A DNA stretch of 64,000 bases from a bacterium (GTDB lineage: Bacteria > Fidelibacterota > Marinisomatia > Marinisomatales > JAHJCW01): assembly GCA_028282845.1 (NCBI GenBank), contig JANQGY010000015.1, positions 77,372 through 141,371 on the forward strand. The letters run 5' to 3'. The notes below the pieces were generated by a model, which did not search any database, had not been told where the DNA came from, and was given only the letters and a program-made list of their open reading frames with translations. Positions 11,805 to 33,471 of this stretch are shown piece after piece. Numbering within the stretch: position 1 is the first letter of the stretch; every line of letters begins with the position of its first letter. A program made the position numbers and the translations under genes.

Positions 11805-11817
11805 AACTCCTCCAATA

Positions 11818-12252: not shown

Positions 12253-12261
12253 GTTATGTAA

Positions 12262-12286
12262 ACAAAAAGTGGGCAAAGCACCCACT
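12262..12286 (-). terminator. Rho-independent terminator upstream of rimP
   Basis: Minus strand AGTGGG-TGCTTTG-CCCACT followed by TTTTTG. Confidence 0.5.
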
Positions 12287-12342
12287 TTCCATCTCGCAAA
12301 TTTACCTGTTAAAATTAATTTTTACAAGCGATTAACTATCGG

Positions 12343-13017: not shown

Positions 13018-13044
13018 TCAATTCTCCATTATTATTAAAGCCTG

Positions 13045-13116
13045 TGAGCTCGAGAGGAATCGAACCTCTATCTAATCCTTAGGAGGGACTTGTTCTATCC
13101 GTTGAACTACGAGCCC
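13045..13116 (-). tRNA. tRNA-Arg (anticodon CCT)
   Basis: Reverse complement GGGCTCG-TA-GTTC-AACGGATA-GAAC-A-AGTCC-CTCCTAA-GGATT-AGAT-AGAGG-TTCGATT-CCTCT-CGAGCTC-A, a 72-nt cloverleaf. Confidence 0.85.
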
Positions 13117-13225
13117 GTTGCATAAAATAGCGTGCGAAAGTTACTGCATTACTTTTTTTTACAAAAGTAATATACTCTACACTTTAGTGAAACAATTTCT
13201 CATAAATTCAATTAAACATAACATC

Positions 13226-14146
13226 ATGAAAAATATATTTATAGTTACAATAATTACAATTGGAGTGATAGCCTTGATGTCTCAGACCAAAGATACTAAA
13301 TACAATAAACTTACGCCTGAAGAAGAACAAGTGGTCATTCACAAAGGTACCGAGCGTCCTTTCAGCGGTGAATATGACCTCCATTTTGAGAAAGGTACTT
13401 ATTTATGTAAACGCTGCGATGCACCGCTTTACCTGTCGGAAGATAAATTCAATGCTCATTGCGGTTGGCCTAGCTTTGATGATGAAATAGCAGGTGCCGT
13501 AAAGCGATTACCCGATCCCGATGGTTTTCGGACTGAAATTGTCTGCGCAAATTGCGATGCCCACCTCGGACACGTATTTGCAGGCGAGGGTTTTACTGAT
13601 AAAAATATTAGACATTGTGTTAACTCAATCTCCTTAAATTTCGACCCTATGAAAGTTGCTAACAAAACCGAAAGAGCGCTATTTGCCTCAGGATGTTTTT
13701 GGGGCACCGAATATCATCTATCAAAGGTTGATGGTGTAATCTCGACTACAGTCGGTTACACCGGTGGTCATAAAGCTAATCCCACTTATCAGGAAGTATG
13801 CACCGGAAATACCGGACATGCCGAAGCAACTGAAGTGATCTACAACCCAAGCAAGGTTAGTTACGAAGAACTTGCCCGACTATTTTTTGAAACTCACGAT
13901 CCGACGCAAGTAAATCGCCAAGGACCCGATATTGGCACGCAATACCGGTCGGCAATTTTTTATTTAGATGATGAGCAAAAGCAAACTGCCAAAAAATTAA
14001 TTGCATTACTTGAAGAGAAGGGATTGAAAATCGCTACCGAAGTAACCGAAGCAGCAAAATTTTGGGAAGCTGAAGACTACCATCAGGATTATTATGACAT
14101 TAAGGGCACTACCCCCTATTGTCATTTTTATACTAAACGATTTTAA
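13226..14146 (+). CDS. msrAB: Fused peptide-methionine sulfoxide reductase MsrB-MsrA with N-terminal hydrophobic signal/anchor
   Basis: The MsrB part has CxxC...CxxC zinc motifs and RHCVNS. The MsrA part has GCFWG. The track start 13118 is TTG and overlaps the tRNA-Arg region; ATG 13226 gives MKNIFIVTIITIGVIALMSQ. Confidence 0.92.
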   Translation: MKNIFIVTIITIGVIALMSQTKDTKYNKLTPEEEQVVIHKGTERPFSGEYDLHFEKGTYLCKRCDAPLYLSEDKFNAHCGWPSFDDEIAGAVKRLPDPDGFRTEIVCANCDAHLGHVFAGEGFTDKNIRHCVNSISLNFDPMKVANKTERALFASGCFWGTEYHLSKVDGVISTTVGYTGGHKANPTYQEVCTGNTGHAEATEVIYNPSKVSYEELARLFFETHDPTQVNRQGPDIGTQYRSAIFYLDDEQKQTAKKLIALLEEKGLKIATEVTEAAKFWEAEDYHQDYYDIKGTTPYCHFYTKRF

Positions 14147-14155
14147 TTTGTAATC

Positions 14156-14379
14156 GTCATTCTAAACGAAGCCCACAGAGTGGACAAGTGAAGAATCCAT
14201 AGATTCTTCGGCACTATGTTTCTCAGAATGACAAGTTCTTTGTTATGGTTGCGAAAACTTATGCGCAGTAATGTACGGAAATCCAATTTGGATATAGATT
14301 CCCAATCAAGTTGGGAATGACAAAAGGATTATGAACATTATTCTTAATTATAGTGTTCTCCCCTTTATAAGGGGGAGAA
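14156..14379. repeat. Island of nested palindromic repeat units (GTCATT...AATGAC family)
   Basis: Unit 14156-14232 runs GTCATTCT...GAAGAATC-CATA-GATTCTTC...AGAATGAC. Unit 14297-14321 is GATTCCCAA-TCAAG-TTGGGAATGAC. Hairpin 14356-14379 is TTCTCCCC-N8-GGGGAGAA. Related units occur at 31.3, 34.5 and 59.8-60.1 kb. Confidence 0.8.
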
Positions 14380-14542
14380 TTAAAGAGGGGGTATAAATTT
14401 GTTACAGATTCTCCCATTTACCTATTTAGCAAATTTAAGCATGGCAGTTTTGACACGCGCCTTCACTCTGTGATGCTCCTTTTCCATCAGAAGGTAACAG
14501 GCAAGTGTGGTACGACAAGTGCGTTTGCCGTTGATGTAGGAA

Positions 14543-20520: not shown

Positions 20521-21033
20521 TCATAAATCATTCTGCTGCATTTTTTTCCGAATGTACAAAATCTTTGTTACCGATGCGACCGATTCGTCTTTCTCATCTT
20601 TTATTTGAGCTTCAAGTTTATGGTGATATTTTTTACCGTTTTCTGTATTCTTTAAAATTGTTTTAATATTATCGTCAGTAATTAAGAATCTAGCCGTAAC
20701 AGTACCAATCCCCGGTTTGACAAAATCAATGTTAGCACTCTGATCCCAAACTACGTAGCCTTTACCCAAAATTTGGATCAACATTAACATAAAAAACGGA
20801 TCGGCCATTGAATATAAAGAACCGCCAAAATGTGTTTTAACATAATTGTGATTATACCAGCTCAACTTCATTTCAACAATTATTTCTTTAAAATCCGGGG
20901 AAATATACTTAACAATAATACCTGTCCCCCAATATGGCGGGTAAATATTTAACATGAATTTTAATAATTTGGATTTCATAATTCTGATGGCGGTTGCATC
21001 TAAACCAAAATGTTCTTTAAATAGTTTTTTCAA
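20521..21033 (-). CDS. Hotdog-fold protein (DUF4442/PaaI-like thioesterase)
   Basis: YPPYWGTGI...THFGGSLYSMADPFFMLM is typical of this family. The track start is TTG; ATG 20979 is an alternative. Confidence 0.7.
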   Translation of the reverse strand: MKKLFKEHFGLDATAIRIMKSKLLKFMLNIYPPYWGTGIIVKYISPDFKEIIVEMKLSWYNHNYVKTHFGGSLYSMADPFFMLMLIQILGKGYVVWDQSANIDFVKPGIGTVTARFLITDDNIKTILKNTENGKKYHHKLEAQIKDEKDESVASVTKILYIRKKMQQNDL

Positions 21034-21087
21034 TAATCAATATTTAATAAAAAATAATCAATAATCAATCAACAATCAACAATCTGA
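21034..21087. repeat. AATCA-rich short tandem repeat tract
   Basis: The tract reads caataatcaat...aataatcaataatcaatcaacaatcaacaatc. A similar tract lies at 31396-31432. Confidence 0.6.
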
Positions 21088-21124
21088 TTATTCCACCCAA
21101 TGCCGGGCGAGTCCATCGCTTTAG
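21088..21124 (-). repeat. Decayed duplicate of the 3' end of the GNAT gene (direct repeat of 22597-22634)
   Basis: ttattccacccaatgc-cgggcgagtccatcgctttag aligns with ttattccacccaatgctcgggcgaatccatcgctttag, with 1 indel and 1 substitution. Confidence 0.8.
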
Positions 21125-21168
21125 TCTAAGTAAGTTTAACAATTTAGGATTCTGATAAAGAACAGTCA

Positions 21169-22476
21169 TTATATCCCATGTTTAGATCTAGTTGTGCCGT
21201 CTTTTTCACCTATCATCAATAATTTGTATCCATTTACCTGATTTGATTCATCCCTTACGAATTGTACAATGTAATCTTCAGAGTCACTAAAAACAAATGA
21301 ATCTTCGTCGAATGGAAGTAAAACAAATTCTTCATTAATGCCCTGATGCCAAAACAAATAATTATCTCTCAGAATTATTTGTTGGTCTTTACCATATACT
21401 CCAACATATTCATCCAGAACAACAGTATTTTGTAATAAATCTTGATATTTTTTTTCTGCAATCAATAAATACCATTCTAATTCTTCAATCTTTTTGCTAT
21501 CCTCATTACTATCTATTAAATCACTTAGTGCAGTTATATACGCTTTTCTGTATGCTAAATATTCATATATTTCAATATCCGGTTGTATTCCCTTACCTTC
21601 CCAATCTTTGAAAAATGGTCGGCCGATCGGCATTTTAATTTCAAGCATTATATCAGGATAATAATAATACTCTCTCCAATGAGCCGCACCCTTTGTTCGT
21701 TCACCAATTATTTTAGCTCTTTTATTTCTTTGCATCATTGAACTGAATGATTCAGCCGCTGAAGCTGTTTGTATGCTGGTAAGTATATATAGTTTAGTAT
21801 CAGAAAGAATTTTACCGGAGACTTCATGAGTCCAAGATTGCCCGAGAGAATCTGTTTCGGGAAAGTACAAACTGCTTGTTATTGTTGGTTCTTCAAAAAA
21901 GTAACTGGATAGTAAATCAACCATTGTACCATGTCCTCCAAAATTGTATCGCAGATCTAATATTATTGCATCCGTATTTGATAGATATTCCATTGCTGCA
22001 ATTGCCGTTTCACCTGCGTATTTTGGATCACTAAATCTATCAAATCTTAAATAGCCAATATTTCCGGAGAGGATTTCTATATTTTTAAAATAATAATTTT
22101 TCTTGGCAAGTTGTACCACTTTTTCAGATGTTAAACTTATTTTATTTTTATTCTTATTCGATTCAGAGTTTTTTATAATGCTAAAACCAATATGATAATC
22201 TTCAACAAGATCATAAATATCAGAATCTATTTTTTCTATTAATTCTTCATATTCGTATATATCATTATATTGTCCTGTCTTTAGATTGTCTAATAAACCT
22301 TCCTTTATAATTTTTGCTTTTTCAGGATATACATAATGCTTTTCAAAACTATTTATAATTGTATTTACGACAGTCTCAATTTTTGCATTATCAAGTTCAA
22401 TATTGTTATAATTACCTTGTCCAAATGATAGGAATGGGATAAGAATTGTACAAATTAGTAAAGTTATCTTTTTCAT
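21169..22476 (-). CDS. S41-family peptidase (tail-specific protease-like), secreted
   Basis: It has a signal peptide, DLRYNFGGHG and the Ser-containing motif LTSIQTASAAESF. Confidence 0.85.
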   Translation of the reverse strand: MKKITLLICTILIPFLSFGQGNYNNIELDNAKIETVVNTIINSFEKHYVYPEKAKIIKEGLLDNLKTGQYNDIYEYEELIEKIDSDIYDLVEDYHIGFSIIKNSESNKNKNKISLTSEKVVQLAKKNYYFKNIEILSGNIGYLRFDRFSDPKYAGETAIAAMEYLSNTDAIILDLRYNFGGHGTMVDLLSSYFFEEPTITSSLYFPETDSLGQSWTHEVSGKILSDTKLYILTSIQTASAAESFSSMMQRNKRAKIIGERTKGAAHWREYYYYPDIMLEIKMPIGRPFFKDWEGKGIQPDIEIYEYLAYRKAYITALSDLIDSNEDSKKIEELEWYLLIAEKKYQDLLQNTVVLDEYVGVYGKDQQIILRDNYLFWHQGINEEFVLLPFDEDSFVFSDSEDYIVQFVRDESNQVNGYKLLMIGEKDGTTRSKHGI

Positions 22477-22596: not shown

Positions 22597-23139
22597 TTAT
22601 TCCACCCAATGCTCGGGCGAATCCATCGCTTTAGCGCAAATAACTTTTCCTTTATTAATCAGCCCTTCGGAAGTAAGCGGCATTACCATCCAAGCATCTT
22701 TCACCGCTTCAGGAATGGGATAAGGCGCGGGGTAGCCCAAATTGCCGGCATCGTTAATAAAACCATGCTTGGGGTAGTATGTGATGTGACCCAAAACAAA
22801 CACAACCTTTGAACCAATTTCCTTGAGCCTTCTAAGCCCCGCCTTAATCAGCATACCGCCAATTCCCTTATTCTGATATTCAGGAAGCACCGCCAAAGGA
22901 GCCAAAATGTGCATTAAAGTGTTGTCATCGCCATTTTCAATTGTGGCTTTAGTAAATAGAATGTGCCCTATCGGTTTATCACCATCAAAAGCAAGCAAGG
23001 AAATACGCGGTTCGGCAGTATCGTCTTTTAAAAGGTCAGCAGTTAAATCGGCTACCGAGTCTTCGTTAAAAGATTCATATTGGATATTAATAATATCATA
23101 AATATCGTTTTGAAGACTTTGTCTAAATGTAATAATCAT
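22597..23139 (-). CDS. GNAT-family N-acetyltransferase
   Basis: The acetyl-CoA binding motif is QNKGIGGMLIKAGL. ATG 23139 is used because the track start is TTG one codon upstream. Confidence 0.88.
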   Translation of the reverse strand: MIITFRQSLQNDIYDIINIQYESFNEDSVADLTADLLKDDTAEPRISLLAFDGDKPIGHILFTKATIENGDDNTLMHILAPLAVLPEYQNKGIGGMLIKAGLRRLKEIGSKVVFVLGHITYYPKHGFINDAGNLGYPAPYPIPEAVKDAWMVMPLTSEGLINKGKVICAKAMDSPEHWVE

Positions 23140-23193
23140 CAAAAAGTTATTGTACTCAAAATTGAATTATAGAGATAGAATGAAATGTGGTAA

Positions 23194-24126
23194 TCAATTA
23201 GAATTCTTATTCATTTTCAATTTTACGGTGTTTTGTTCCATACCAGATATATATTTGCTAAAATAATCAATTCTATAAGTAATTCTTCTGTTGATTTCAC
23301 TAAGTGATACATCAAACGGAATTTCTATTTTGCTTTTAGCAGATATTATCTCCGCTGTTGTTCCTATTGCAATTAACCTAAAAGACTGCTTTTGATCTAC
23401 TTTTCTATATTTTTTAAATTTTTCCTGTTCAGCATCCAATAATATATTTTGAGGAATGAATATAAATATTGTGCGAATATTTGCTTCGATATTTCCCGAG
23501 TTTTCTAATATTATTTCATTTATCTTTATTGAATCGCCAGTCTGAGTTGTATCTTTAAAATACATGTTAAGAATAGGTTTACGAGAAAATTCATCAAGTA
23601 GAATACTTTGTTGCTCCTTCCAAATTTCTAATTGTTTATCAGTCGATTCAACTATCTTATTCAACTGATTATTATATTTATTAATGTTTTCTTCAAACAT
23701 ATTTAGTGATGAAGAAAAGTTATTGACAGAGCTATTTAATGTTTTTGTATTCGTTTTGTAATTATCACTTTGGTTTATAACTATTCTATTTAATGTATCA
23801 ATACTGTTTGAAAAATTATCGATTTGAACAGGAAGTTCTTTTAATTTATGCGACAGCTCATCTATAGCACCACCTATTTCTGAGATATTATTTTTATAAC
23901 CTTCCAAATTTTCAAATAGTTTTTCTGTGTTTTGATTTGTGGACAAAATAGTGTACACTGAAATCCATAATGCTATAAAAATAAATATGGTTTGCAGCAA
24001 TTTTGATAAAGAATCAAAATATGATCGGTAATATTTTACAGTATCACGGAAATAGACAATAACAGTTGCAATTATTGCTAGTATAAAGATTATTGTAATT
24101 GTAATTATTAATGGAGATGTTGTCAC
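23194..24126 (-). CDS. Uncharacterised 2-TM protein with long coiled-coil and C-terminal beta-rich domain (island gene X1)
   Basis: 310 aa. The only possible start that keeps the TM helices is GTG 24126, overlapping the X2 stop (GTGA). TM helices span about aa 5-25 and 44-62. An N/S/K-rich heptad region spans about aa 65-180. I recognise no motif. Confidence 0.7.
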   Translation of the reverse strand: MTTSPLIITITIIFILAIIATVIVYFRDTVKYYRSYFDSLSKLLQTIFIFIALWISVYTILSTNQNTEKLFENLEGYKNNISEIGGAIDELSHKLKELPVQIDNFSNSIDTLNRIVINQSDNYKTNTKTLNSSVNNFSSSLNMFEENINKYNNQLNKIVESTDKQLEIWKEQQSILLDEFSRKPILNMYFKDTTQTGDSIKINEIILENSGNIEANIRTIFIFIPQNILLDAEQEKFKKYRKVDQKQSFRLIAIGTTAEIISAKSKIEIPFDVSLSEINRRITYRIDYFSKYISGMEQNTVKLKMNKNSN

Positions 24127-25091
24127 AATGCTGATTTAAACAAATTTTCAAATTCGTTCTTGTCAATTATTTTTACTAAATCGGTTTCAAGCTTTCTATA
24201 ACTTTGTGGTATACGTTCATTTGAAACAATGTATCCTAAATTTGCGTTATTTTCACCAATCTCATACTCTATACGTTTTATTATTTTCCTGATAGTAGTA
24301 TGTGGAATCCTGACGAGAGTATTTTTTACTTCTATTAAAATTTTATTACCCTTGAAAATGATTTCAAAATCATAATGCCCTTTATATATTTCTTTAAAAT
24401 CGATTTTAAGCTTTTTAAACATATTGTGAATATTTTTTTCAAATTCAATACCTGAAGCAATTGTTTGCATTGGTTTAGGTTCAATTGATCTTCCTAGGCG
24501 GAAAAAATATGAAATAAATACAATTGTTATTAATCCTATAATAAATACAGATGTAATTATAAATTGATTATTTATCGAAAATGTACTATTTATGGATTGC
24601 ATTATTTCAATAGTAGTTGCTATAATTGCCGTTGCAACAACAGACGAGGTAAGTGCAATTACTGTTTCTGCATACTTATTCTTTTTTACTTTTATTTCAC
24701 TTTTATAATCATCTATTATATTTTCTTCAATCTCATTTATGTTACCATAAGTTCTTCTTAAGTTTTGAATAATGTTCTTTCTATTATTAGCATTAATAAA
24801 ATCGTTTTGAATAATGTTAGAATAGAGTTCAGATACAATCTCTTCAACATTTAATAAAGCTTCTTGCTTGATTCGATGTTCTCGCGATTTTGATTGAAGT
24901 AAATACTCTATTTCATTTTCTTTATAGTAAGAATTCTCTAATACAATTCTTTTTAATATTGTTGAAATTACATCATGGTTTGCTATCATTGCTCTTTCAT
25001 CTTTAGCGCCAATAGTTTTTTTTCTACTAATTAGATAAATCAGTATTGTGATAAGTATTCCACTAATTGTAAGAATTAAACTAAAATCCAT
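24123..25091 (-). CDS. Uncharacterised 3-TM protein with C-terminal PD-(D/E)xK (Mrr-cat/restriction endonuclease-like) domain (island gene X2)
   Basis: 322 aa with TM helices at about aa 3-22, 143-163 and 176-197. The C-terminal GIEFEKNIHNMF...HYDFEIIFKGNKILIEVKN...LGYIVSNERIP places D241-x12-E254-x-K256 in a restriction-endonuclease-like pattern. Confidence 0.72.
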   Translation of the reverse strand: MDFSLILTISGILITILIYLISRKKTIGAKDERAMIANHDVISTILKRIVLENSYYKENEIEYLLQSKSREHRIKQEALLNVEEIVSELYSNIIQNDFINANNRKNIIQNLRRTYGNINEIEENIIDDYKSEIKVKKNKYAETVIALTSSVVATAIIATTIEIMQSINSTFSINNQFIITSVFIIGLITIVFISYFFRLGRSIEPKPMQTIASGIEFEKNIHNMFKKLKIDFKEIYKGHYDFEIIFKGNKILIEVKNTLVRIPHTTIRKIIKRIEYEIGENNANLGYIVSNERIPQSYRKLETDLVKIIDKNEFENLFKSAL

Positions 25092-25153
25092 AGCAAATCC
25101 AATTAATAGGCTTTCTCTTTCTTCAAATCCCTTGTTATTAATTCTATAAAATT

Positions 25154-26254
25154 TTATTTACCGGCTTTTGTACGATTATCCTTTTTACATAACATTTGGC
25201 AATTTTCTGCAATTGTCTTTCCGCCCTCATGCCAAGGAGTAATATGATCTGCTTCCATCTCAGTAATATCAAATTTCTCTCCACACTTAACACAAACTCC
25301 TTTTTGTTTTTCGTATGCCTCTCTCTTCATGTTATCAGAAAATGCACGTATTGAAAGATATTTTTCTTCTCCTGTAAAGATATACGGATAAATACCTGCT
25401 TTTTTTGTAACATCTTCATCTTGCATTAATTCGGCGACTTTAACTTCTATTTTATCTGAATTATATTTTTCTTTATTAAATTGATTATATAGATTGCCCC
25501 AATTGACTGTTGACATTTCATTTCGATATATTGTAAAGTTCTCTCGTACCCAAGCAATTACTTTTTGGAAATAATGCCACAACTCATCAGAATTCTTGTC
25601 ATTTTGATGTTTTGCCATATATTCAGCAACATTCCCATTATTTATCCAAGAAATTGCTGTTTCAAGATATTCTTGTCTAATTGGTTTTCCTTTAATCAAT
25701 AATCCACCGTCTTTCGCTAATAGATATGCCGCGCAATTTGATTTACTAAATTTTAACTTAGCATCTGAAAGCCAAGGTCCGGTGTAAACAGCATTTCGAA
25801 GCTCTTGATCAGTTAATTTTTCACCCGCTATGTTTATAATTTTAAACCAATCCAACCTCTCTTTATCAGTTCCCTCACAAAAATATATCATCAATTCATA
25901 GTTTAATATTTGGTTTTGTTCTTCATCAGTTAGATTATGAAAATATTTATCTAGATTCCCATCTTTTAAGGAAAAATCTCCATTCACATATTGTCCGATA
26001 CTTATGGTACGTTGTTGACCGTCTAACATTTCAAATCCATCTTTATTCTTTAACCAGTACATAACATTTAGTGGAAAATTTTTCTTTATGGATTTGATGA
26101 CTTCTTTTCTTTGTTTGTCATTATAAACAAATTCACGTTGATATTTGGGACGTACATCAAGTTTGCCACTATAAGCAACAACACCTTCTTCCGCATTATC
26201 TTTATATCCTTCAATTACTTCACGAACAGTAATACGATTTAATTCAATTTCCAT
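25154..26254 (-). CDS. DUF262 (ParB/Srx-like, DGQQR) - HNH endonuclease fusion protein
   Basis: The N-terminus has KYQREFVY...LDGQQRTISIGQY. The C-terminus has CVKCGEKF...ADHITPWHEGGKTIAENCQMLCKKDNRTK (HNH). Confidence 0.9.
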   Translation of the reverse strand: MEIELNRITVREVIEGYKDNAEEGVVAYSGKLDVRPKYQREFVYNDKQRKEVIKSIKKNFPLNVMYWLKNKDGFEMLDGQQRTISIGQYVNGDFSLKDGNLDKYFHNLTDEEQNQILNYELMIYFCEGTDKERLDWFKIINIAGEKLTDQELRNAVYTGPWLSDAKLKFSKSNCAAYLLAKDGGLLIKGKPIRQEYLETAISWINNGNVAEYMAKHQNDKNSDELWHYFQKVIAWVRENFTIYRNEMSTVNWGNLYNQFNKEKYNSDKIEVKVAELMQDEDVTKKAGIYPYIFTGEEKYLSIRAFSDNMKREAYEKQKGVCVKCGEKFDITEMEADHITPWHEGGKTIAENCQMLCKKDNRTKAGK

Positions 26255-26261
26255 TTCGTTT

Positions 26262-27299
26262 TTATATTTTTCTATTTTTTATAATTACTCTTGCATAAGG
26301 CACTTCAACAACTCCATCATTAATCATATAAAGATCGCCATCAACTGCACCTCTTTTTTGAATATTTTTTCTATATTCTTTATGTTCTTCTTTGTAAGGT
26401 TTAACACCAATTTCAATTCCTGAATTGGAAATACCTAATCCAATAATTTCAAATTGATCCGGATTATACTTATCTAAAAATGTAATTGGTACCCCCATTG
26501 CGCCATTAAAGTCACAAGGAATATCGGTATATTTATTTACATTTATAGCATCATAGTTTTCATATTTGGGGTAATCCTCAGGACTATATTTCTTATATAA
26601 AGTAATATTTTCTTTATGTTTTTCAACCTCCAAGTTTGTGAACCAACACGAAGTTGAGACACGAGCTATTTTATTGCCATATTCATCTTTATGATGAAAT
26701 TTTTCCCAATCATCTGGAACTATAAAAAACATACCTACATTAAAATTCGTGTAACCTGTTCTAATATTATCTTCTTTGAACAGTTTAAAAATCTCCCTAT
26801 ATGTCATTGCGTTAGTATTGCCGATGATTAAATAATCCTTTTTATATTTTTCTAATTGTCCTACATATTCACGGAACATAGAAAATGGTGGATTGGTTAC
26901 AACAATATCCGCTTCTTCAAGTAATTCAATACATTCTTTACTGCGGAAATCCCCTGTCCCAATCATTTCAGTAATAAATTCCTCTGGATCAGGCATACGA
27001 TTATTGTTTTTATCACCGGTATATTCCAGTTTATATGGTGGTTCTTGGGAAAACAAATTTGCTTCTTTGTAATGTGTAGCAATTAATTTTTTTAACCCTA
27101 AATGCTCAAAATTTAAACTGAAATACTTTACAAAATTGCTTTCTCTTGGATCGTCGCAATTACAAAAGACCACCTTACCTTTGAATTGATCTTTATAGTT
27201 ACGTAGCTCTTTTTCAATGTCATCAAGTTGGGTATAAAACTCATCTTTCTTTTCTTTACTTGCTATATGCAAATTTTTATTAGAAGACAGTTTTGTCAT
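26262..27299 (-). CDS. Adenine-specific DNA methyltransferase, EcoRI-methylase-like family
   Basis: It has DEFYTQLDDIEKEL..Y...GKVVFCNCDDP and the catalytic VVTNPPFS (NPPF). ATG 27299 is used because the track start is GTG one codon upstream. Confidence 0.85.
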   Translation of the reverse strand: MTKLSSNKNLHIASKEKKDEFYTQLDDIEKELRNYKDQFKGKVVFCNCDDPRESNFVKYFSLNFEHLGLKKLIATHYKEANLFSQEPPYKLEYTGDKNNNRMPDPEEFITEMIGTGDFRSKECIELLEEADIVVTNPPFSMFREYVGQLEKYKKDYLIIGNTNAMTYREIFKLFKEDNIRTGYTNFNVGMFFIVPDDWEKFHHKDEYGNKIARVSTSCWFTNLEVEKHKENITLYKKYSPEDYPKYENYDAINVNKYTDIPCDFNGAMGVPITFLDKYNPDQFEIIGLGISNSGIEIGVKPYKEEHKEYRKNIQKRGAVDGDLYMINDGVVEVPYARVIIKNRKI

Positions 27300-27307
27300 C
27301 ACTTTTT

Positions 27308-27351
27308 AATAAACCTTCTCTTTCATCTACATTCCGTTACGATTGACAAGT
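27308..27351. repeat. Tail half of the bipartite island repeat (copy C), overlapping the 3' end of the 27327-28277 gene
   Basis: Minus strand CTTGTCAATCGTAACGGAATGTAGATGAAAGAGAAGGTTTATT aligns with copy A CTTGTCAATCATAAAGTGTAGATTGAAGAGAAGGTTTATT. Confidence 0.75.
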
Positions 27352-28277
27352 CCTTGCCATTCTTTGGGGTATTTACCGTTTTTATCAGAATTTGATGGCA
27401 CATATATTGGTTTATCAATTGGTCTTAATTTTAGTTCGCCATTTATCAGTTGTTTAATTCTTTTTTTAGATACATCACAATAAGATTTCTCTTTATCAAT
27501 ACCAACAACGTTTCTTTCATTTTTTAAAGCAGCAATTGCTGTTGAACCTACTCCAACAAATGGATCCAGTACCCAACTATTCTTATTTGTAAGGGCCAAT
27601 AAACATCTTTCTACTAATTCAACAGGAAACTGACATGGATGCTCGGTTTTTTCAGGGTGATTCGATTTTACATTTGGTATGTTCCACAGTCCGGTTTCCC
27701 AATCTTTTAACACAATATTCCAAATATCTGATGGATTTTTGCCTTTCGGATTTCCGGATAGTTTACCTTTATTCGGTCCTTTGAAGTGTTTTTTCCCCGG
27801 ATATTTTGATGGAATTCTAACATCGTCCAAATTAAATATATAGTTATCAGATTTTGTGAACCACAAAATTGTTTCATATCTTCCTGAAAATCTATTTGAC
27901 GCATGTAGCCCGTGTCCGAAATGCCATATAATTCTATTTCTTAATTTTAGACCGAATTTTTTAAATATATCATAATAAAAAATATCTAAGGGAAATATTT
28001 CTCCTTTATTTACATAATTTCCAACCTGCCAACAAATACTTCCTTCATTTGACAAAACCCTCACAAGTTCAGAAATTATATTCTCTTGGAAATTTAAATA
28101 TTCACTTATCGTGGTTTTATTTTCATACGATTTGCCAATATTGTATGGTGGTGAGGTAATTATTAAATCAAAATGATTTTCTTCTAAACTTTTTAATGCG
28201 TTGAGCGCATCATCACAAACTATTGAATACTCTATATTTGGGTTTATATAATTAAATAATGATTCTTTACTTTTCAT
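27327..28277 (-). CDS. Beta-class N4-cytosine/N6-adenine DNA methyltransferase (N6_N4_Mtase family)
   Basis: Motif IV DLIITSPPYN is N-terminal and motif I DPFVGVGSTAIAA is C-terminal, which is the beta-class order. Confidence 0.9.
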   Translation of the reverse strand: MKSKESLFNYINPNIEYSIVCDDALNALKSLEENHFDLIITSPPYNIGKSYENKTTISEYLNFQENIISELVRVLSNEGSICWQVGNYVNKGEIFPLDIFYYDIFKKFGLKLRNRIIWHFGHGLHASNRFSGRYETILWFTKSDNYIFNLDDVRIPSKYPGKKHFKGPNKGKLSGNPKGKNPSDIWNIVLKDWETGLWNIPNVKSNHPEKTEHPCQFPVELVERCLLALTNKNSWVLDPFVGVGSTAIAALKNERNVVGIDKEKSYCDVSKKRIKQLINGELKLRPIDKPIYVPSNSDKNGKYPKEWQGLVNRNGM

Positions 28278-28318
28278 AATTAGAATTTAATGAACTTTTT
28301 ATTTCTTTAAACTTATCG

Positions 28319-28555
28319 TTATTGATTAGTATGAATTTCAGAATTATTATCACATTCCTCACAAATAAAATCACCCTTTGGATTAATCCTGTTATTGGCA
28401 ATGCAAGTTTGAATATTGTTCAGGTCAAATAGGCGATTGACAAATTTACCGGAACCAAAAGCGACGCTATTTCCACAATGGTTGCATATCTCGGTTTGTA
28501 TATTTTTTGCGTTCTTTGTGTCTTCGTGGTTAATCAATATATTTTCTTTCTTCAA
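28319..28555 (-). CDS. Small zinc-ribbon protein (about 78 aa)
   Basis: CNHCG...x41...CEEC gives four Cys in two CxxC pairs. Only TTG starts are available; TTG 28555 overlaps the upstream stop (TTGA). The 5' part overlaps a head-type repeat copy. Confidence 0.45.
   Translation of the reverse strand: MKKENILINHEDTKNAKNIQTEICNHCGNSVAFGSGKFVNRLFDLNNIQTCIANNRINPKGDFICEECDNNSEIHTNQ
28501..28550. repeat. Head half of the bipartite island repeat (copy C')
   Basis: Minus strand AAATATATTGATTAACCACGAAGACACAAAGAACGCAAAAAATA aligns with copy B GGTATATTGATTAACCACAAAGGCACAAAGGACACAAAGAATTA. Confidence 0.65.
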
Positions 28556-28938
28556 ATCTTTTTAATAAAATCAACAATTAAATATAAAGCCCCGAAAGCG
28601 GCTCCGCCAAAAATTAATATATTTGATGATAAAGCATTAAACTCATAGCCCTCGGCGTTCATGTATAATATATGTAACAGGGCATGCAAAATTAGAAAAA
28701 TACTTATGCCAATTCGTGTACCATTCATTACTTTTTCATTTTTGCTCGCAACAAGAGCAACTATAGTTGAAAATATGGGGATATGTAAGAATAGAAAGAC
28801 TAATTTACCATTTTCATCCGATAGCCAATTTGTAATTGGCAATACCCTCCATTCATGATTCAGCATGGCGTCCAATTCATGCGTGAATAATATACCAAGA
28901 CCGATATAAAAAATAATATTTAACCAAGATTTAGACAT
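28552..28938 (-). CDS. 4-TM membrane protein (128 aa)
   Basis: It has four hydrophobic helices and a THELDAMLNHEW motif after TM1. ATG start. Confidence 0.65.
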   Translation of the reverse strand: MSKSWLNIIFYIGLGILFTHELDAMLNHEWRVLPITNWLSDENGKLVFLFLHIPIFSTIVALVASKNEKVMNGTRIGISIFLILHALLHILYMNAEGYEFNALSSNILIFGGAAFGALYLIVDFIKKI

Positions 28939-28949
28939 TTAATACACCT

Positions 28950-29050
28950 AATAAACCTTCTCTTCAATCTACACTTTATGATTGACAAGTTTTTGATTGT
29001 TATAATTCTCTGTGTTCTCTGTGGCTTCATAATCTATCAATATACCTTTT
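28950..29050. repeat. Bipartite island repeat, copy A (head plus tail)
   Basis: It lies between the RES gene stop and the next start codon. The head has tandem ACACAGAGA units. The tail has hairpin TCAATC-N10-GATTGA followed by AGAGAAGG. Confidence 0.8.
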
Positions 29051-29058
29051 CCGATATT

Positions 29059-29520
29059 TTATTTAAAAATTCTATCGTCAAATGGAAACGGTGTTTTTGT
29101 TTTAATCTTAACATTTTTGAAATCCGTATGCTTAGGATTTATAAGAATATTGAAGTCGCCTTTAGTTACAGCTGATGGAACCTGCATTAAACAAAATTTG
29201 TTTTCTACTACAAAATTATCACCGATAGATTGAGTTCTTTTTGAATAAGGATTCCACTCTTTCCAATCTTTAGGTAATTTTGAAATATGTACTTTTTTTA
29301 TTTTTAACGAATCGGGTATTTCAACTTCAACCATATAATAATCAGACGGTAAAGTTGATATTGAAAAGTGTACGGCAATCTCTGCCATTGCCAGCGATCG
29401 GTTTTGAGCTGTATAGATTAATTCTGTTCCGGGTGAATTCCATCTTGCTCCTTTTTTTGCTGCACCTTTTCCTGAAAGAGTTCTTAAATATTTTTTCCTC
29501 GTTAAGCGATATACAATCAT
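29059..29520 (-). CDS. RES-domain toxin (NAD+-targeting toxin family)
   Basis: 153 aa with GARWNSPG (R), SLAMAEI (E) and MQVPSAV (S). The start overlaps the antitoxin stop by 1 nt. Confidence 0.9.
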   Translation of the reverse strand: MIVYRLTRKKYLRTLSGKGAAKKGARWNSPGTELIYTAQNRSLAMAEIAVHFSISTLPSDYYMVEVEIPDSLKIKKVHISKLPKDWKEWNPYSKRTQSIGDNFVVENKFCLMQVPSAVTKGDFNILINPKHTDFKNVKIKTKTPFPFDDRIFK

Positions 29521-30017
29521 CAGGCAAAAATGCCATGATCAATTCTTGTTAATTCTCCGATCACCATTTCCTTACCATAAGAATCTTTTAATAAATCCAT
29601 TGGCCTTAAACTACGGAGAGCATAATTCGGCGTTCTTAACCATTGTTTAAATTGTTCTTCACTGTCAAAAATATCATAACCCAATTCAACAACTTCAGCG
29701 ATTTCAATAATTTTTTCTGAATGGATGGGTTTAAAACTTTTTTTATCCAATTTATATCTATTAATTGTTTTGGTAGAGGTATCAAGATATTTAGCAAATT
29801 CAGCAAGTGTAAAGGTAGATTTCTCTCTAATTAGTTCAAAGATTGGGAATGGAATACCGGTTTGGATAGCAATTACAATTAAATGTATATTATTTAAGAA
29901 TTCATCAAAAGTAATGTTTTTACCTTTCAATAAGTTTTTCTGACTTTTCTTTTCAATGGAATTAAAAAATAATCTGATTTCATTGTCTAATTTATCATCA
30001 ATATTTTTAGTTTTCAT
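29520..30017 (-). CDS. Xre-type antitoxin with C-terminal DUF2384 (MbcA/ParS-like) toxin-binding domain
   Basis: It has an HTH-like middle part (TLAEFAKYLDTSTKTINRY) and a C-terminal WLRTPNYALRSLRPMDLL...GELTRIDHGIFA. ATG 30017 is used because the track start is TTG. Confidence 0.88.
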   Translation of the reverse strand: MKTKNIDDKLDNEIRLFFNSIEKKSQKNLLKGKNITFDEFLNNIHLIVIAIQTGIPFPIFELIREKSTFTLAEFAKYLDTSTKTINRYKLDKKSFKPIHSEKIIEIAEVVELGYDIFDSEEQFKQWLRTPNYALRSLRPMDLLKDSYGKEMVIGELTRIDHGIFA

Positions 30018-30037
30018 ATGCAACCTGCTAATTATTA

Positions 30038-30076
30038 ATAGGACTATTGTCCTATATATTATGACATATGTCCTAT
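30038..30076 (-). promoter_or_regulatory. Candidate operator of the Xre-RES operon
   Basis: ATAGGAC-TATT-GTCCTAT (30038-30055) is a perfect inverted repeat. A second GTCCTAT half-site lies 21 bp away inside ATGACATATGTCCTAT (30061-76). The sites are 20-60 bp upstream of the antitoxin ATG. Confidence 0.45.
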
Positions 30077-30120
30077 TTGATGCAAGGAATATTAATTAAA
30101 TAAAAAATATTGGATTAGTA

Positions 30121-30232
30121 AACTTTTTCCTTCTTCCTATCTACGCTAAAACTACGATAGGCAAGCTTTTATTTGATATAATTCTTTGTGTCCTTTGTGC
30201 CTTTGTGGTTAATCAATATACCTTCTCCTTTT
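30121..30232. repeat. Bipartite island repeat, copy B (head plus tail), overlapping the gpsA stop
   Basis: The head has three tandem CACAAAGG units. The tail has hairpin CCTATC-N14-GATAGG followed by AAGAAGG. Confidence 0.8.
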
Positions 30233-31211
30233 TCAGATCGCGCGTCATTAATTCTTTAACCTTGTCAACCGGATTCTCACCGTGGAATAATACCGATTCC
30301 ATAGCTTCAGCTATAGGCATGTGAACTTTGTATTTGTCACGCAGTTGCAGCATGGATTTGGCAGTCTTCACCCCTTCCGCCACCATCTTCATTTCAGCAA
30401 GGATGTCATCCAATTTACGCCCCTTGCCAAGCTCCTCGCCCACATAGCGGTTACGGCTGTGCTTGCTCAGGCAGGTTGCCATCAGGTCGCCAATTCCGCT
30501 CAAACCAAAAAAAGTTTCCGGCTTAGCGCCCATAATTACGCCGAGGCGGGTCATCTCGGTCAGTCCGCGGGTGATGAGGGCGGCTTTGGTATTGTCGCCG
30601 TAGCCCATTCCGTCACAGATTCCCGCCGCAATGGCGATGACGTTCTTCAGCGATCCGGCAAGTTCCACGCCTAAAATATCAGTATTAGTATATATGCGCA
30701 AATCTTGCGATGCAAACTCGTGCTGCACAATTTTGGCGGTTTCGGTATGTTCACAAGCGGCAACTAGGATTGTGGGCATTTTAAGTGCGACTTCCTCAGC
30801 ATGACTTGGTCCGTATAAAGTAACGATGCGCTCCTTTTCAATTCCGCCCGCTTCCGCGATGACTTGGCTCATCGTTTCCAAGCTGTCATTCTCAACACCT
30901 TTAGCCAAGTTCACGATTATTGCATTATCTTTAATGAATGGTACACTTTCACCAATTATTCCGCGCACAATGTGAGATGGTGTTGCCACCACAACTATTT
31001 CAGCGTCTTTTAATGCAAATTCAAGATCAACCGTTAATTCAATCTCTTTGGATATCTTTAACTGCGGTATCAAATTATGTTGGCGGGTCTTCTGCATCTC
31101 GCGCACTTCGTCCTCGAATTTGTGCCACCCAATCACTTTATGACCATTATCGCTCAAATGCTGAGCCATTGTTCCGCCCCAAGAACCAAAACCTAGTACT
31201 GTAATGTTCAT
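30213..31211 (-). CDS. gpsA: NAD(P)H-dependent glycerol-3-phosphate dehydrogenase
   Basis: 332 aa with N-terminal VLGFGSWGGTMA (Rossmann fold) and GLSGIGDLMATC. Confidence 0.95.
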   Translation of the reverse strand: MNITVLGFGSWGGTMAQHLSDNGHKVIGWHKFEDEVREMQKTRQHNLIPQLKISKEIELTVDLEFALKDAEIVVVATPSHIVRGIIGESVPFIKDNAIIVNLAKGVENDSLETMSQVIAEAGGIEKERIVTLYGPSHAEEVALKMPTILVAACEHTETAKIVQHEFASQDLRIYTNTDILGVELAGSLKNVIAIAAGICDGMGYGDNTKAALITRGLTEMTRLGVIMGAKPETFFGLSGIGDLMATCLSKHSRNRYVGEELGKGRKLDDILAEMKMVAEGVKTAKSMLQLRDKYKVHMPIAEAMESVLFHGENPVDKVKELMTRDLKKEKVY

Positions 31212-33387: not shown

Positions 33388-33471
33388 GCCGGGGTGGCGG
33401 AACTGGTAGACGCGCCGGTCTCAAAAACCGGTCTCAGCAATGAGGTGTCGGTTCGATTCCGACCCTCGGCA
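33388..33471 (+). tRNA. tRNA-Leu (anticodon CAA)
   Basis: GCCGGGG...CCGGT-CTCAAAA-ACCGG with a long variable arm (TCTCAGCAATGAGGTG), a GGTTCGATTCC T-arm and acceptor CCTCGGC-A. 84 nt. Confidence 0.9.

What the first reader, a model, noticed from the sequence alone, without database searches (positions are those of the whole stretch)
23194..25091. Uncharacterised overlapping gene pair in the defence island: extracytoplasmic coiled-coil 2-TM protein plus membrane-tethered PD-(D/E)xK nuclease-domain protein
Two genes are translationally coupled: the X2 stop and the X1 GTG start overlap as GTGA at 24126-24123. They lie directly downstream of, and co-directional with, the R-M-like module (62-bp gap). 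X2 (322 aa) has TM1, a helical region of about 120 aa, TM2-TM3, and a C-terminal domain with the layout of Mrr-cat/restriction endonuclease folds (FE...D241-x12-E254-V-K256...GYIVSN). X1 (310 aa) has two N-terminal TM helices with a basic loop between them. By the positive-inside rule this places the coiled-coil of about 120 aa and the beta-rich C-terminal domain outside the cytoplasm. I do not recognise this pairing as any named defence system. The architecture of an external sensor-like protein with a membrane-anchored nuclease-fold effector, together with the island context, suggests a candidate new anti-phage or abortive-infection module. Alternatively the pair could be an accessory part of the adjacent R-M system.
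Basis: inference. Interest (0 to 1): 0.75.

Follow-up and report, generated by a model that had tools for sequence, protein, structure and literature searches.

The report
Membrane nuclease and envelope protein, chance-paired
Two overlapping membrane-protein genes beside a restriction system are real, but elsewhere each travels alone as a single-gene mobile cassette, so they are most likely two independent accessory (probably anti-phage) genes, one a membrane-anchored DNA-cutting enzyme, rather than a new two-part defence system.

Summary
X2 (24123-25091, minus strand, 322 aa) and X1 (23194-24126, minus strand, 310 aa) are intact, overlap by GTGA, and lie 62 bp downstream of a type II restriction-modification (R-M) module.

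X2 is the most divergent member of a family of at least 220 proteins of about 325 aa. The layout is TM1, a conserved basic cytoplasmic helical domain, a TM2-TM3 hairpin, then a cytoplasmic Mrr-type PD-(D/E)xK nuclease. E218, D241, E254 and K256 are conserved, 98 of 112 members hit Pfam Mrr_cat, and the model's fold matches are nucleases.

X1 belongs to a small family with a TM hairpin, a predicted extracytoplasmic coiled coil and an Ig-like beta-sandwich.

The pairing is not conserved: 0 of 20 X2 loci carry X1, and 0 of 9 X1 loci carry X2. Each gene instead occurs alone, mostly as a single-gene integron cassette (X2 11/20, X1 4/9; 1/83 window ORFs as control). One X2 homologue lies just downstream of the Q-like antiterminator gene in a lambdoid prophage. 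R-M homologues on plasmids lack both genes.

In the window the pair ends a 7-kb strain-variable insert.

Best reading: X2 is an autonomous membrane-tethered nuclease, analogous to SNIPE and to the integron cassette Epona, and X1 is an independent envelope protein. A lineage-specific sensor-effector pairing remains possible (about 0.15).

The parts
24123..25091 (-). X2: 322-aa membrane-anchored Mrr-type PD-(D/E)xK nuclease. It is the most divergent member of a family of at least 220 proteins of about 325 aa.
   Evidence: ORF. Family and profile search. 98 of 112 family members hit Pfam Mrr_cat. Divergence measured.
25029..25085 (-). X2 TM1 (about residues 3-21). The N-terminus is predicted to lie outside the cytoplasm.
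   Evidence: Hydropathy and AF2 helix. Family charge statistics: 0 K+R before TM1 and 4.4 K+R after it.
24672..25028 (-). X2 cytoplasmic helical domain (about residues 22-140). It holds most of the family's invariant residues: T26, G28, E32, R48, K68 and R104.
   Evidence: Alignments A1 and A3. AF2 helices with pLDDT 73-85 over residues 31-100. No Pfam or PDB match.
24501..24671 (-). X2 TM2-TM3 hairpin (about residues 141-197) with a short external loop.
   Evidence: Hydropathy. The loop is poor in K+R (1.1) and the segment after TM3 is richer (2.9).
24126..24473 (-). X2 C-terminal PD-(D/E)xK (Mrr_cat-like) nuclease domain, residues 207-322. Catalytic residues are E218, D241, E254 and K256.
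   Evidence: The AF2 model shows an alpha-beta-beta-beta-alpha-beta core at pLDDT about 80. Top Foldseek PDB matches are almost all PD-(D/E)xK nucleases: Cdn1, Can2, R.BspD6I, DdmD, EcoO109I, Hjc and AF1548, with E-values from 3e-3 to 0.2. Residue conservation.
24123..24126 (-). GTGA overlap: the X1 GTG start overlaps the X2 TGA stop.
   Evidence: Sequence. X1 homologues start 6 residues later with ATG, where the window has ATA (I7). GTG is therefore the only standard start codon that keeps TM1.
23194..24126 (-). X1: 310-aa membrane protein from a small family. 135 cluster representatives match at E<=1e-3 among 1.84 billion.
23941..24114 (-). X1 TM hairpin (about residues 5-62) with a basic cytoplasmic loop.
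   Evidence: The loop averages 3.7 K+R against 1.3 after TM2.
23587..23940 (-). X1 long coiled-coil or helical stalk (about residues 63-180), predicted extracytoplasmic.
   Evidence: AF2 helix 89-180. Database hits here are only coiled-coil noise: STAT_alpha, EzrA and tape-measure families.
23221..23571 (-). X1 C-terminal Ig-like beta-sandwich (residues 186-302).
   Evidence: AF2 pLDDT about 90. Foldseek PDB gives generic sandwiches: TMEM106B luminal domain, integrin domains, GAE and ApaG, at E about 3e-4.
25154..28277 (-). Adjacent type II R-M module: REase (DUF262/GmrSD_N+HNH, 25154-26254), EcoRI-family MTase (26262-27302) and N6_N4 MTase (27327-28277).
   Evidence: The same MTase+REase pair sits on plasmids without X2 or X1.
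23039..30214 (.). Strain-variable insert between gpsA and the GNAT gene. It carries the Xre/RES toxin-antitoxin pair, DUF6713, the R-M module, X2 and X1.
   Evidence: blastn against related-strain contig L041 aligns only 30215-31211 (gpsA) and 22597-23038 (3' part of GNAT). The relative carries an 831-aa HSDR_N-like/AAA NTPase in this interval instead. Low GC shown.

Best explanation
X2 and X1 are two separate accessory genes that lie next to each other, and are probably co-expressed, only in this lineage.

X2 is a divergent member of a widespread family of inner-membrane-anchored Mrr-type nucleases. The predicted topology is N-terminus out, TM1, a conserved basic helical domain in the cytoplasm, a TM2-TM3 hairpin, and then a PD-(D/E)xK nuclease on the cytoplasmic face. 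Elsewhere the family spreads as a self-contained single gene, mostly as an integron gene cassette. It also occurs once just downstream of the Q-like antiterminator gene of a lambdoid prophage, and in variable islands. The protein must therefore work without a dedicated partner.

The most likely activity is cleavage of DNA at the inner face of the membrane. That would be phage or other incoming DNA, with the membrane tether keeping the nuclease away from the chromosome. This is the logic shown for SNIPE, and the architecture reported for the validated integron cassette Epona.

X1 is an independent membrane-anchored protein whose coiled coil and Ig-like domain face the periplasm. It is also cassette-borne elsewhere, and its activity is unknown; an envelope-level phage-exclusion role is a guess.

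Shown here: gene structure, family membership, nuclease fold and motif, lack of co-occurrence, cassette status of homologues, and the strain-variable locus.

Inferred: topology, the anti-phage role and the substrate.
For: 1. Nuclease. E218, D241, E254 and K256 are conserved across 112 family members. 98 of 112 members hit Pfam Mrr_cat, best E 5e-11. The AF2 core fold and the Foldseek hits are PD-(D/E)xK nucleases.

2. Topology. Positive-inside statistics over the family.

3. Autonomy. There are 20 distinct X2 loci without X1 and 9 X1 loci without X2. No family recurs among 140 neighbouring ORFs.

4. Mobility as single genes.
- An exact complementary R'/R'' box pair brackets the gene in 11 of 20 X2 loci and 4 of 9 X1 loci, against 1 of 83 window ORFs.
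- Several X2 loci from different taxa (Salinicola, Marinobacter, an Alteromonadaceae MAG, a Chlorobiaceae MAG, a Melioribacteraceae MAG) carry the same box: GTTATAC about 13-32 nt upstream and GTATAAC at or within a few nt of the stop.
- Arrays of about 189-nt attC repeats flank the homologues in L010 and L023.
- An X2 homologue lies about 1.1 kb downstream of the Q-like antiterminator gene in an IMG/VR prophage.

5. Defence-type surroundings. The window insert also carries a RES/Xre toxin-antitoxin pair and an R-M module. In a related strain the same interval holds a nuclease-like AAA/STAND-like NTPase. Neighbours of homologues include TIR, ThsB-like, PsyrTA, HEPN/AbiU2 and BrnTA genes.

6. 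Precedents. SNIPE is an N-out membrane-anchored nuclease that cuts phage DNA during injection (bioRxiv 10.1101/2025.11.03.685801). Epona is an anti-phage integron cassette with Mrr_cat plus 2 TM helices (bioRxiv 10.1101/2024.07.02.601686).
Against: - No experiment bears on either family.
- X2 itself gets no direct Pfam or PADLOC hit. It is the most divergent family member, with mean identity 24% and only 29 of 51 highly conserved columns retained, so its activity could have changed.
- The 4-nt overlap argues for co-expression with X1 and leaves room for a local functional link. So does the loss of X1's ancestral ATG in favour of a GTG inside X2's stop.
- Some X2 homologues sit among ordinary metabolic genes (L025, L045).
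- Integron cassettes encode many functions other than defence.
- The topology is predicted, not measured.
Confidence: 0.55

Rival explanations
1. X1 and X2 form a real, lineage-specific two-component system. The periplasmic coiled-coil and Ig-like part of X1 senses an envelope event such as phage adsorption or injection. It then signals through the membrane to release or position the X2 nuclease. On this reading the system was assembled recently from two formerly independent cassette genes.
For: - The GTGA overlap, with X1's start moved onto X2's stop.
- Complementary predicted topologies.
- X2 here is the most divergent family member, as expected after adaptation to a new partner.
- No terminator-like site lies between the R-M genes, X2, X1 and the GNAT gene.
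Against: - There is no co-occurrence in 29 other loci, and each family is fully functional-looking on its own.
- A 4-nt overlap is common between unrelated neighbouring genes in compact operons.
- No interaction evidence could be produced here.
Confidence: 0.15
2. The pair is an accessory part of the adjacent R-M system, for example a membrane-localised second nuclease or a regulator that depends on the system's methylation.
For: The genes are co-directional with a 62-bp gap and no terminator-like site. GC content is similarly low.
Against: The same EcoRI-family MTase + DUF262-HNH REase module on plasmids is a two-gene unit. In the Aeromonas and Sulfitobacter records unrelated genes lie downstream; the Chryseobacterium locus ends at the REase, so its downstream side was not seen. 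X2 and X1 homologues are not next to such R-M genes in any of 29 loci.
Confidence: 0.05
3. X2 and/or X1 have no role in defence. X2 could be a membrane-associated DNA-processing or addiction-type toxin nuclease that stabilises cassette arrays. X1 could be an ordinary envelope structural or adhesion protein. Their presence in variable regions would then simply reflect cassette mobility.
For: Most integron cassettes are of unknown and diverse function (papers). Some homologues lie beside metabolic genes. No defence-database hit was found.
Against: The catalytic nuclease residues are conserved, and the family is found as single-gene cassettes across several taxa and once just downstream of the Q-like antiterminator gene in a prophage. 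Validated precedents exist for TM+nuclease cassettes in phage defence. Defence and toxin-antitoxin genes are nearby.
Confidence: 0.25

Closest known systems
Epona (anti-phage integron cassette of the Vibrio cholerae sedentary chromosomal integron; Darracq et al., bioRxiv 10.1101/2024.07.02.601686)
   Same: The paper describes it as a single-gene integron cassette with an Mrr_cat nuclease domain fused to a 2-TM (holin-like) domain and with tested anti-phage activity. The X2 family also has Mrr_cat plus TM helices and is cassette-borne.
   Different: Epona's sequence could not be obtained here, so homology is untested. The paper reports Epona almost only in V. cholerae, whereas the named X2-family hits come from many other phyla and none is a Vibrio. 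X2 has three TM helices, with a conserved cytoplasmic domain of about 120 aa inserted between TM1 and TM2.
SNIPE (membrane-bound nuclease that cleaves phage DNA during injection; bioRxiv 10.1101/2025.11.03.685801)
   Same: A single protein with an N-out membrane anchor, a middle cytoplasmic domain with a basic surface, and a C-terminal cytoplasmic nuclease. Tethering to the membrane is what protects host DNA.
   Different: SNIPE has one TM helix, a DUF4041 middle domain and a GIY-YIG nuclease. X2 has three TM helices, an unrelated helical domain and a PD-(D/E)xK nuclease, with no hit to DUF4041 or GIY-YIG. It is an analogue, not a homologue.
Mrr/Mrr_cat (PF04471) type IV and type II restriction endonuclease catalytic domain
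   Same: Same fold and catalytic motif. 98 of 112 family members hit the Pfam model, and fold matches include AF1548, Hjc and EcoO109I.
   Different: X2 has no DNA-recognition (winged-helix) N-terminal domain as in Mrr, is membrane-embedded, and itself scores below detection against PF04471.
Integron gene cassettes (attC-bounded single-gene mobile units)
   Same: Homologues of both genes are bounded by an upstream R' box and their own attC, whose R'' box is complementary to it. They lie in arrays of co-directional small genes.
   Different: The window copies have no attC or R-box signature, overlap each other, and lie in a chromosomal hotspot next to an R-M module. No integron integrase was seen in any fetched locus.

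Membership tests
PD-(D/E)xK nuclease superfamily / Pfam Mrr_cat (PF04471) | Alpha-beta-beta-beta-alpha-beta core fold | tested here: met
   The AF2 model has H207-227, E231-233, E242-246, E249-256, H264-280 and E285-290 at pLDDT about 80. Top Foldseek PDB hits are PD-(D/E)xK nucleases, with probability 0.9-1.0 and E from 3e-3 to 0.2.
PD-(D/E)xK nuclease superfamily / Pfam Mrr_cat (PF04471) | Catalytic signature E ... D ... (D/E)-x-K | tested here: met
   E218, D241 and E254-V-K256 are present. D241 is invariant and the others are conserved in at least 90% of 112 sequences.
PD-(D/E)xK nuclease superfamily / Pfam Mrr_cat (PF04471) | Significant match of the protein itself to the Pfam model | tested here: inconclusive
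   X2 has no Mrr_cat hit at E<=1. It is full-length homologous (phmmer 2e-24 to 4e-19) to proteins that do hit, and 98 of 112 family members match, best E 5.2e-11.
Conserved two-gene (X1+X2) system | The two genes co-occur and are adjacent in other genomes | tested here: not met
   0 of 20 distinct X2 loci and 0 of 9 X1 loci hold the other gene. The only exceptions are contigs of the window's own genome, L008 and L009.
Integron gene cassette | The gene is followed by an attC site whose R'' box is complementary to the R' box upstream of the gene | tested here: not met
   Not met for the window copies: no box pair for X2, X1, the pair, or R-M plus the pair. Met for homologues: 11/20 X2 loci and 4/9 X1 loci, against 1/83 window ORFs.
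Integron gene cassette | An integron integrase (IntI) with attI at the head of the array | not tested
   No IntI-specific model was run. The fetched flanks (at most 10 kb) showed tyrosine recombinases only in L001, next to IS91 elements. The arrays would count as attC clusters without an integrase.
SNIPE | DUF4041 domain and GIY-YIG nuclease | tested here: not met
   No such Pfam hits for X2 or for 112 family members.
SNIPE | N-out membrane anchor with the nuclease in the cytoplasm | tested here: inconclusive
   Predicted from positive-inside statistics only. No topology predictor or reporter fusion was available.
SNIPE | Cleaves phage DNA during genome injection | not testable with these tools
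   Needs infection assays.
Epona (V. cholerae integron cassette) | Sequence homology to the Epona protein | not testable with these tools
   The sequence or locus tag is not in the held text or supplement.
Epona (V. cholerae integron cassette) | Mrr_cat nuclease fused to a 2-TM holin-like domain in a single cassette gene | tested here: inconclusive
   Mrr_cat and a TM2-TM3 hairpin are present, and homologues are cassettes. However, only 1 of 112 members gives a weak holin hit (PF07332, 8.5e-4), and X2 has an extra TM1 plus a cytoplasmic domain of about 120 aa.
Accessory subunit of the adjacent R-M type (EcoRI-family MTase + DUF262-HNH REase) | Found with that R-M module elsewhere | tested here: not met
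   44 plasmid records hold the REase at 80% coverage or more. Three were inspected; the Aeromonas and Sulfitobacter records have unrelated genes downstream, and the Chryseobacterium locus ends at the REase. X2 and X1 give no tblastn match in 72,556 plasmids.
Named defence systems in PADLOC-DB v2 (incl. Shedu, Zorya, Kiwa, CBASS/Pycsar TM effectors) | Significant match to a system's HMM | tested here: not met
   X2 has no hit at E<=1. X1 has only a coiled-coil-level DruC hit at 8.7e-4. Across 112 X2-family members there are only scattered hits at 1e-3 to 1e-5 (TmtA 9, 2TM effector 4, ZorD 3).

The most novel reading that the evidence does not exclude
In this lineage two formerly independent integron-cassette genes have been welded into one operon: a membrane Mrr-type nuclease and a periplasm-facing coiled-coil/Ig-like protein. 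The weld involved loss of the intervening attC and moved X1's start onto X2's stop. The result would be a new trans-envelope sensor-effector defence system. It would also be a caught-in-the-act example of how multi-gene defence systems are assembled from single-gene cassettes. Separately, the X2 family itself would be a widespread, undescribed single-gene membrane-nuclease defence that integrons spread across many phyla.
Probability: 0.15. Interest if true: 0.75.

Novelty: new variant of a known kind. Interest (0 to 1): 0.45.

Why it matters
If X2-type proteins are anti-phage nucleases, they would be a second route, independent of SNIPE, to the same strategy. The fold differs (PD-(D/E)xK rather than GIY-YIG), but the idea is the same: tether a non-specific nuclease to the inner membrane so that it meets incoming DNA and not the chromosome.

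The family is compact (about 325 aa, one gene) and has at least 220 members. It is carried as an integron cassette with a conserved recombination box in taxa ranging from Gammaproteobacteria to Chlorobiaceae and Melioribacteraceae MAGs. That makes it an easy candidate for cassette-based phage screens.

The result also corrects the original claim. The X1-X2 pair is not a conserved system, so experiments should test each gene alone as well as together. The X1 family remains a real unknown: a cassette-borne periplasmic coiled-coil/Ig-like protein.

Tried and rejected
- **Direct family searches.** Pfam, NCBIfam, PHROGs and PADLOC gave nothing significant for X2. For X1 they gave only coiled-coil noise (STAT_alpha, EzrA, tape-measure, DruC).
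- **PDB sequence-profile searches.** Profiles of 4 and of 112 X2-family sequences gave no significant hit. The best were BetP at 0.5, a Pcc1 fusion at 0.006 and Hjc at 0.14.
- **First attC scanner.** It used RYYYAAC ... GTTRRRY with a strict fold requirement and a 150-nt limit. It missed the real sites of about 189 nt.
- **Relaxed duplex-energy attC scanner.** It found them, but in GC-rich loci it was no better than shuffled sequence. I rejected it as a counting tool and replaced it with the exact R'/R'' complementarity test, whose background is 1/83 in the window.
- **Viral and plasmid collections.**
  - No X1 relative in IMG/VR.
  - No X2 or X1 match in the plasmid collection.
  - The typical family member P0027 gave no match in the INPHARED phage collection and one hit on a Pandoraea megaplasmid.
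- **Epona.** I tried to obtain its identity or sequence from the paper and its supplement, without success.
- **Promoter and terminator scan.** Promoter-like sites were at background (44 against 38 expected). No terminator-like site lies between the R-M genes and the GNAT gene.
- **Organism.** Exact look-ups returned no names. The window's source remains an unnamed assembly.
- **Shedu-like reading.** I considered a TM-bearing PD-(D/E)xK nuclease of the Shedu type. Neither DUF4263 nor SduA models hit.
Full report
**1. The observation**

The ORF list shows X2 at 24123-25091 (minus strand, ATG, 322 aa) and X1 at 23194-24126 (minus strand, GTG, 310 aa). The sequence shows X2's TGA stop and X1's GTG start sharing GTGA.

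Upstream on the same strand, after a 62-bp gap, lie three genes:
- a DUF262/GmrSD_N+HNH endonuclease (PADLOC REase_II, 1.8e-137, full length);
- an EcoRI-family adenine methyltransferase (1.7e-122);
- an N6_N4 methyltransferase (8e-58).

Further upstream are DUF6713 and a RES/Xre toxin-antitoxin pair. Downstream is a GNAT acetyltransferase.

- X2 has TM1, about 120 helical residues, a TM2-TM3 hairpin and an alpha/beta C-terminal domain.
- X1 has a TM hairpin, a helix of about 90 residues and a nine-strand beta-sandwich.

**2. What X2 is**

X2 alone has no significant hit in Pfam, NCBIfam, PHROGs or PADLOC. A sequence search found only three full-length relatives at 27-29% identity, all carrying Mrr_cat. 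A profile of these four sequences retrieved 220 proteins, nearly all 320-335 aa and matching over 85-98% of the query. Named sources include Thermodesulfobacteriota, Melioribacteraceae, Phycisphaerales, Acidobacteriota, Chloroflexi, Rossellomorea and Priestia. A genome scan added Salinicola, Marinobacter, Lysinibacillus, Chlorobiaceae, Desulfobulbus and others.

In an alignment of 112 members, T26, G28, E32, R48, K68, R104 and D241 are invariant. E218, E254 and K256 are conserved in at least 90%. 98 of the 112 hit Pfam Mrr_cat (best 5e-11), and smaller numbers hit the related NOV_C, NA-iREase1 and Hjc models.

The AF2 model has mean pLDDT 66, about 80 in the C-terminal domain. It shows the alpha-beta-beta-beta-alpha-beta core. 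Its Foldseek PDB matches are almost all PD-(D/E)xK nucleases: Cdn1, Can2, R.BspD6I, DdmD, EcoO109I, Hjc, AF1548, XisH, Card1 and Cap4. The E-values are modest (3e-3 to 0.2) but probabilities are 0.9-1.0.

The nuclease assignment therefore rests on three legs: motif, family-level HMM hits and fold.

Charge statistics over the family put 0 K+R before TM1, 4.4 after it, 1.1 in the TM2-TM3 loop and 2.9 after TM3. By the positive-inside rule, the N-terminus is outside and both soluble domains are cytoplasmic. This is an inference.

The window's X2 is the most divergent of the 112. Its mean identity is 24% against a family median of 42%. It matches 29 of 51 highly conserved columns, but keeps every catalytic residue.

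**3. What X1 is**

X1 has about ten relatives at 36-47% identity in the word-indexed search. An exhaustive profile search of 1.84 billion representatives found 135 hits at E<=1e-3 and 29 at E<=1e-30. It is a small family.

The AF2 model (pLDDT 75, about 90 in the C-terminal domain) shows a TM hairpin, a long helix and a beta-sandwich. Fold matches are generic Ig-like sandwiches: TMEM106B luminal domain, integrin domains, GAE, ApaG and YcnI, at about 3e-4. All sequence-family hits are coiled-coil noise.

The inter-TM loop is basic (3.7 K+R against 1.3 after TM2). Longer variants of about 450 aa replace the hairpin by a soluble N-terminal domain of about 180 aa followed by one TM. Both observations point to the coiled coil and sandwich lying outside the cytoplasm. 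This is also an inference.

**4. The pairing is not conserved**

I collected 20 distinct X2-family loci:
- metagenome contigs L001, L002, L043 and L045;
- 14 genome contigs, L015-L028;
- one IMG/VR contig, L037;
- Rossellomorea, L042.

I also collected 9 distinct X1-family loci: L010, L012, L013, L029, L030, L032, L034, L035 and L036.

HMM searches of all ORFs, plus a six-frame tblastn, found the two families together only in contigs of the window's own genome (L008, L009).

Among 140 ORFs within 4 kb of X2 homologues, no Pfam or PADLOC family recurs in more than three. Immediate neighbours differ from locus to locus:
- a membrane protein with an FtsK-gamma domain in a Bacteroidales MAG;
- a HerA-like ATPase in Rossellomorea;
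- PsyrTA in Salinicola.

**5. Each gene travels alone as an integron cassette**

L010 (X1 homologue) and L023 (X2 homologue, a Melioribacteraceae MAG) are arrays of co-directional small genes. The genes are separated by repeats of about 189 nt that begin (R)YYTAAC and end GCAACGCCGTTAGGC or GTTATAC.

The diagnostic feature of a cassette is that the R' box left upstream of the gene is the exact reverse complement of the R'' box that opens the gene's own attC. I tested this directly, asking for GTTNNNN within 130 nt upstream and its exact complement within 130 nt after the stop. The results were:
- 11 of 20 X2 loci;
- 4 of 9 X1 loci;
- 1 of 83 ORFs in the window;
- 34 of 543 other ORFs in the fetched loci, many of which are themselves cassettes.

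Seven X2 loci share the same box: GTTATAC about 13-32 nt before the start and GTATAAC at or within a few nt of the stop. They are from Salinicola, Marinobacter, a Pseudomonadota MAG (L021), an Alteromonadaceae MAG, a Chlorobiaceae MAG and a Melioribacteraceae MAG (L016, L021, L022, L023, L026, L027), while a Lentimicrobiaceae MAG (L020) shows the upstream box only. The intervening attC sequences fold as typical imperfect hairpins of 61-190 nt.

One X2 homologue lies in an IMG/VR lambdoid prophage. It sits about 1.1 kb downstream of the Q-like antiterminator gene, after Ant, HNH and RusA-like genes, in the late-region slot where lambdoid phages often carry accessory genes (my own knowledge, not tested here).

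No integron integrase was seen within the fetched flanks.

**6. The window locus**

The window copies have no attC or R-box signature.

A contig from a related strain (L041) aligns at 79-91% nt identity to four stretches:
- the AMP-binding gene;
- gpsA (30215-31211);
- the 3' 442 nt of the GNAT gene (22597-23038);
- the M13 peptidase gene.

Between gpsA and GNAT the relative carries a 61-aa ORF and an 831-aa protein with AAA/STAND-like P-loop hits and a weak N-terminal HSDR_N_2 hit. Window 23039-30214 is therefore a strain-variable insert with low GC, and X2-X1 is its last element.

The R-M type occurs on many plasmids as a two-gene MTase+REase unit. In the Aeromonas and Sulfitobacter examples unrelated genes lie downstream; the Chryseobacterium locus ends at the REase. 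Neither X2 nor X1 has a match in 72,556 plasmids.

**7. Mechanism**

Because the X2 family is mobilised as one gene, it must function without a fixed partner. The architecture is a membrane anchor, a conserved basic cytoplasmic domain and a catalytically intact nuclease on the cytoplasmic face.

This architecture has two precedents:
- It resembles SNIPE, where the tether protects host DNA and the nuclease cuts phage DNA as it enters.
- It matches the description of Epona, an experimentally validated anti-phage cassette of the V. cholerae integron with Mrr_cat plus two TM helices.

Integron cassettes are now known to be rich in compact defence genes (papers). I therefore rate 'autonomous membrane-tethered nuclease acting on incoming DNA' as the most likely function. 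The substrate, trigger and self/non-self discrimination are all inferred.

X1's function is unknown. A periplasm-facing protein carried as a cassette could act in envelope-level exclusion, but nothing tests that here.

**8. The residual case for a local partnership**

X1 homologues start with ATG six codons downstream of the window's GTG. At that position the window has ATA. X1 translation here therefore depends on a start codon embedded in X2's stop.

Taken with X2's unusual divergence and the opposite-facing topologies, a lineage-specific sensor-effector pairing cannot be excluded. It could have been built from two cassettes after loss of the attC between them. I put it at about 0.15.

**9. 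Comparison and novelty**

X2 is a member of the PD-(D/E)xK/Mrr_cat superfamily: fold and motif are met, and its own HMM score is not. It is not a member of SNIPE, because DUF4041 and GIY-YIG are absent. It matches no PADLOC system. Homology to Epona could not be tested.

The kind, a membrane-anchored nuclease defence carried as a cassette, is known. This 3-TM family with its conserved inserted cytoplasmic domain matched no model in PADLOC-DB v2, Pfam, NCBIfam or PHROGs, and I did not meet it in the papers read. The proposed two-gene system, as a conserved entity, is not real.

Noticed in passing
window 23039-30214, compared with L041 3717-7005: The gpsA-GNAT interval is a strain-variable hotspot. 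The window holds a RES/Xre toxin-antitoxin pair, DUF6713, R-M, X2 and X1. A relative at 79-91% nt identity instead holds an 831-aa protein with a weak HSDR_N-like N-terminus and an AAA/STAND-like NTPase, itself a plausible defence gene. The first ~100 nt of the GNAT ORF are also not shared.
   Followed up: partly
window 20521-22476: The S41 peptidase and DUF4442 genes between GNAT and the M13 peptidase are absent from the related strain contig L041. This is a second indel in the same neighbourhood.
   Followed up: no
window 29059-30023: A RES-domain toxin (6e-24) and an Xre/MbcA/ParS-type antitoxin (7.7e-12) overlap by one base. This is a canonical RES-Xre toxin-antitoxin pair at the head of the insert.
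   Followed up: no
window 25154-28277: The R-M module has two methyltransferases (N6_N4 and EcoRI-family) and a DUF262+HNH endonuclease. The plasmid homologues inspected show only the EcoRI-family MTase plus the REase, so the second MTase is an addition here.
   Followed up: partly
L010 1-13704 and L023 2800-11200: Two unrelated contigs share the same unusually long attC type of about 189 nt (... GGGCGGCGG.TTA...GCAACGCCGTTAGGC). L010 carries an X1 homologue and L023 an X2 homologue. The L010 array also carries HEPN_AbiU2 and HEPN cassettes.
   Followed up: partly
L025 8170-9429: In a Bacteroidales MAG, the X2 homologue is followed after 19 nt by a 419-aa protein. It has an N-terminal coiled coil, two TM helices and a C-terminal FtsK-gamma DNA-binding domain (4.5e-13). 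This is a different membrane protein partner, seen once.
   Followed up: partly
L001 567-5625 and 14694-19583: A block made of an IS91-family transposase plus the same run of small ORFs is duplicated on either side of the X2 homologue. Three consecutive tyrosine recombinase genes lie at 11248-14407.
   Followed up: no
P0159, P0160, P0166 (X1-family variants, about 450 aa): Some X1 relatives replace the N-terminal TM hairpin with a soluble domain of about 180 aa that has no Pfam match, followed by a single TM helix. P0224 keeps the N-terminal domain and the sandwich but lacks most of the coiled coil.
   Followed up: partly
L042 2859-5862: In Rossellomorea vietnamensis the X2 homologue lies 139 nt downstream of a 405-aa unknown protein and a 606-aa HerA-like DUF87 ATPase. 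This may be another defence-type pair.
   Followed up: no
window 33388-33471, 13045-13116, 1540-1614: Three tRNA genes were found. The one at 33388-33471 lies about 3 kb from the variable insert. I did not examine it as a possible integration site.
   Followed up: no
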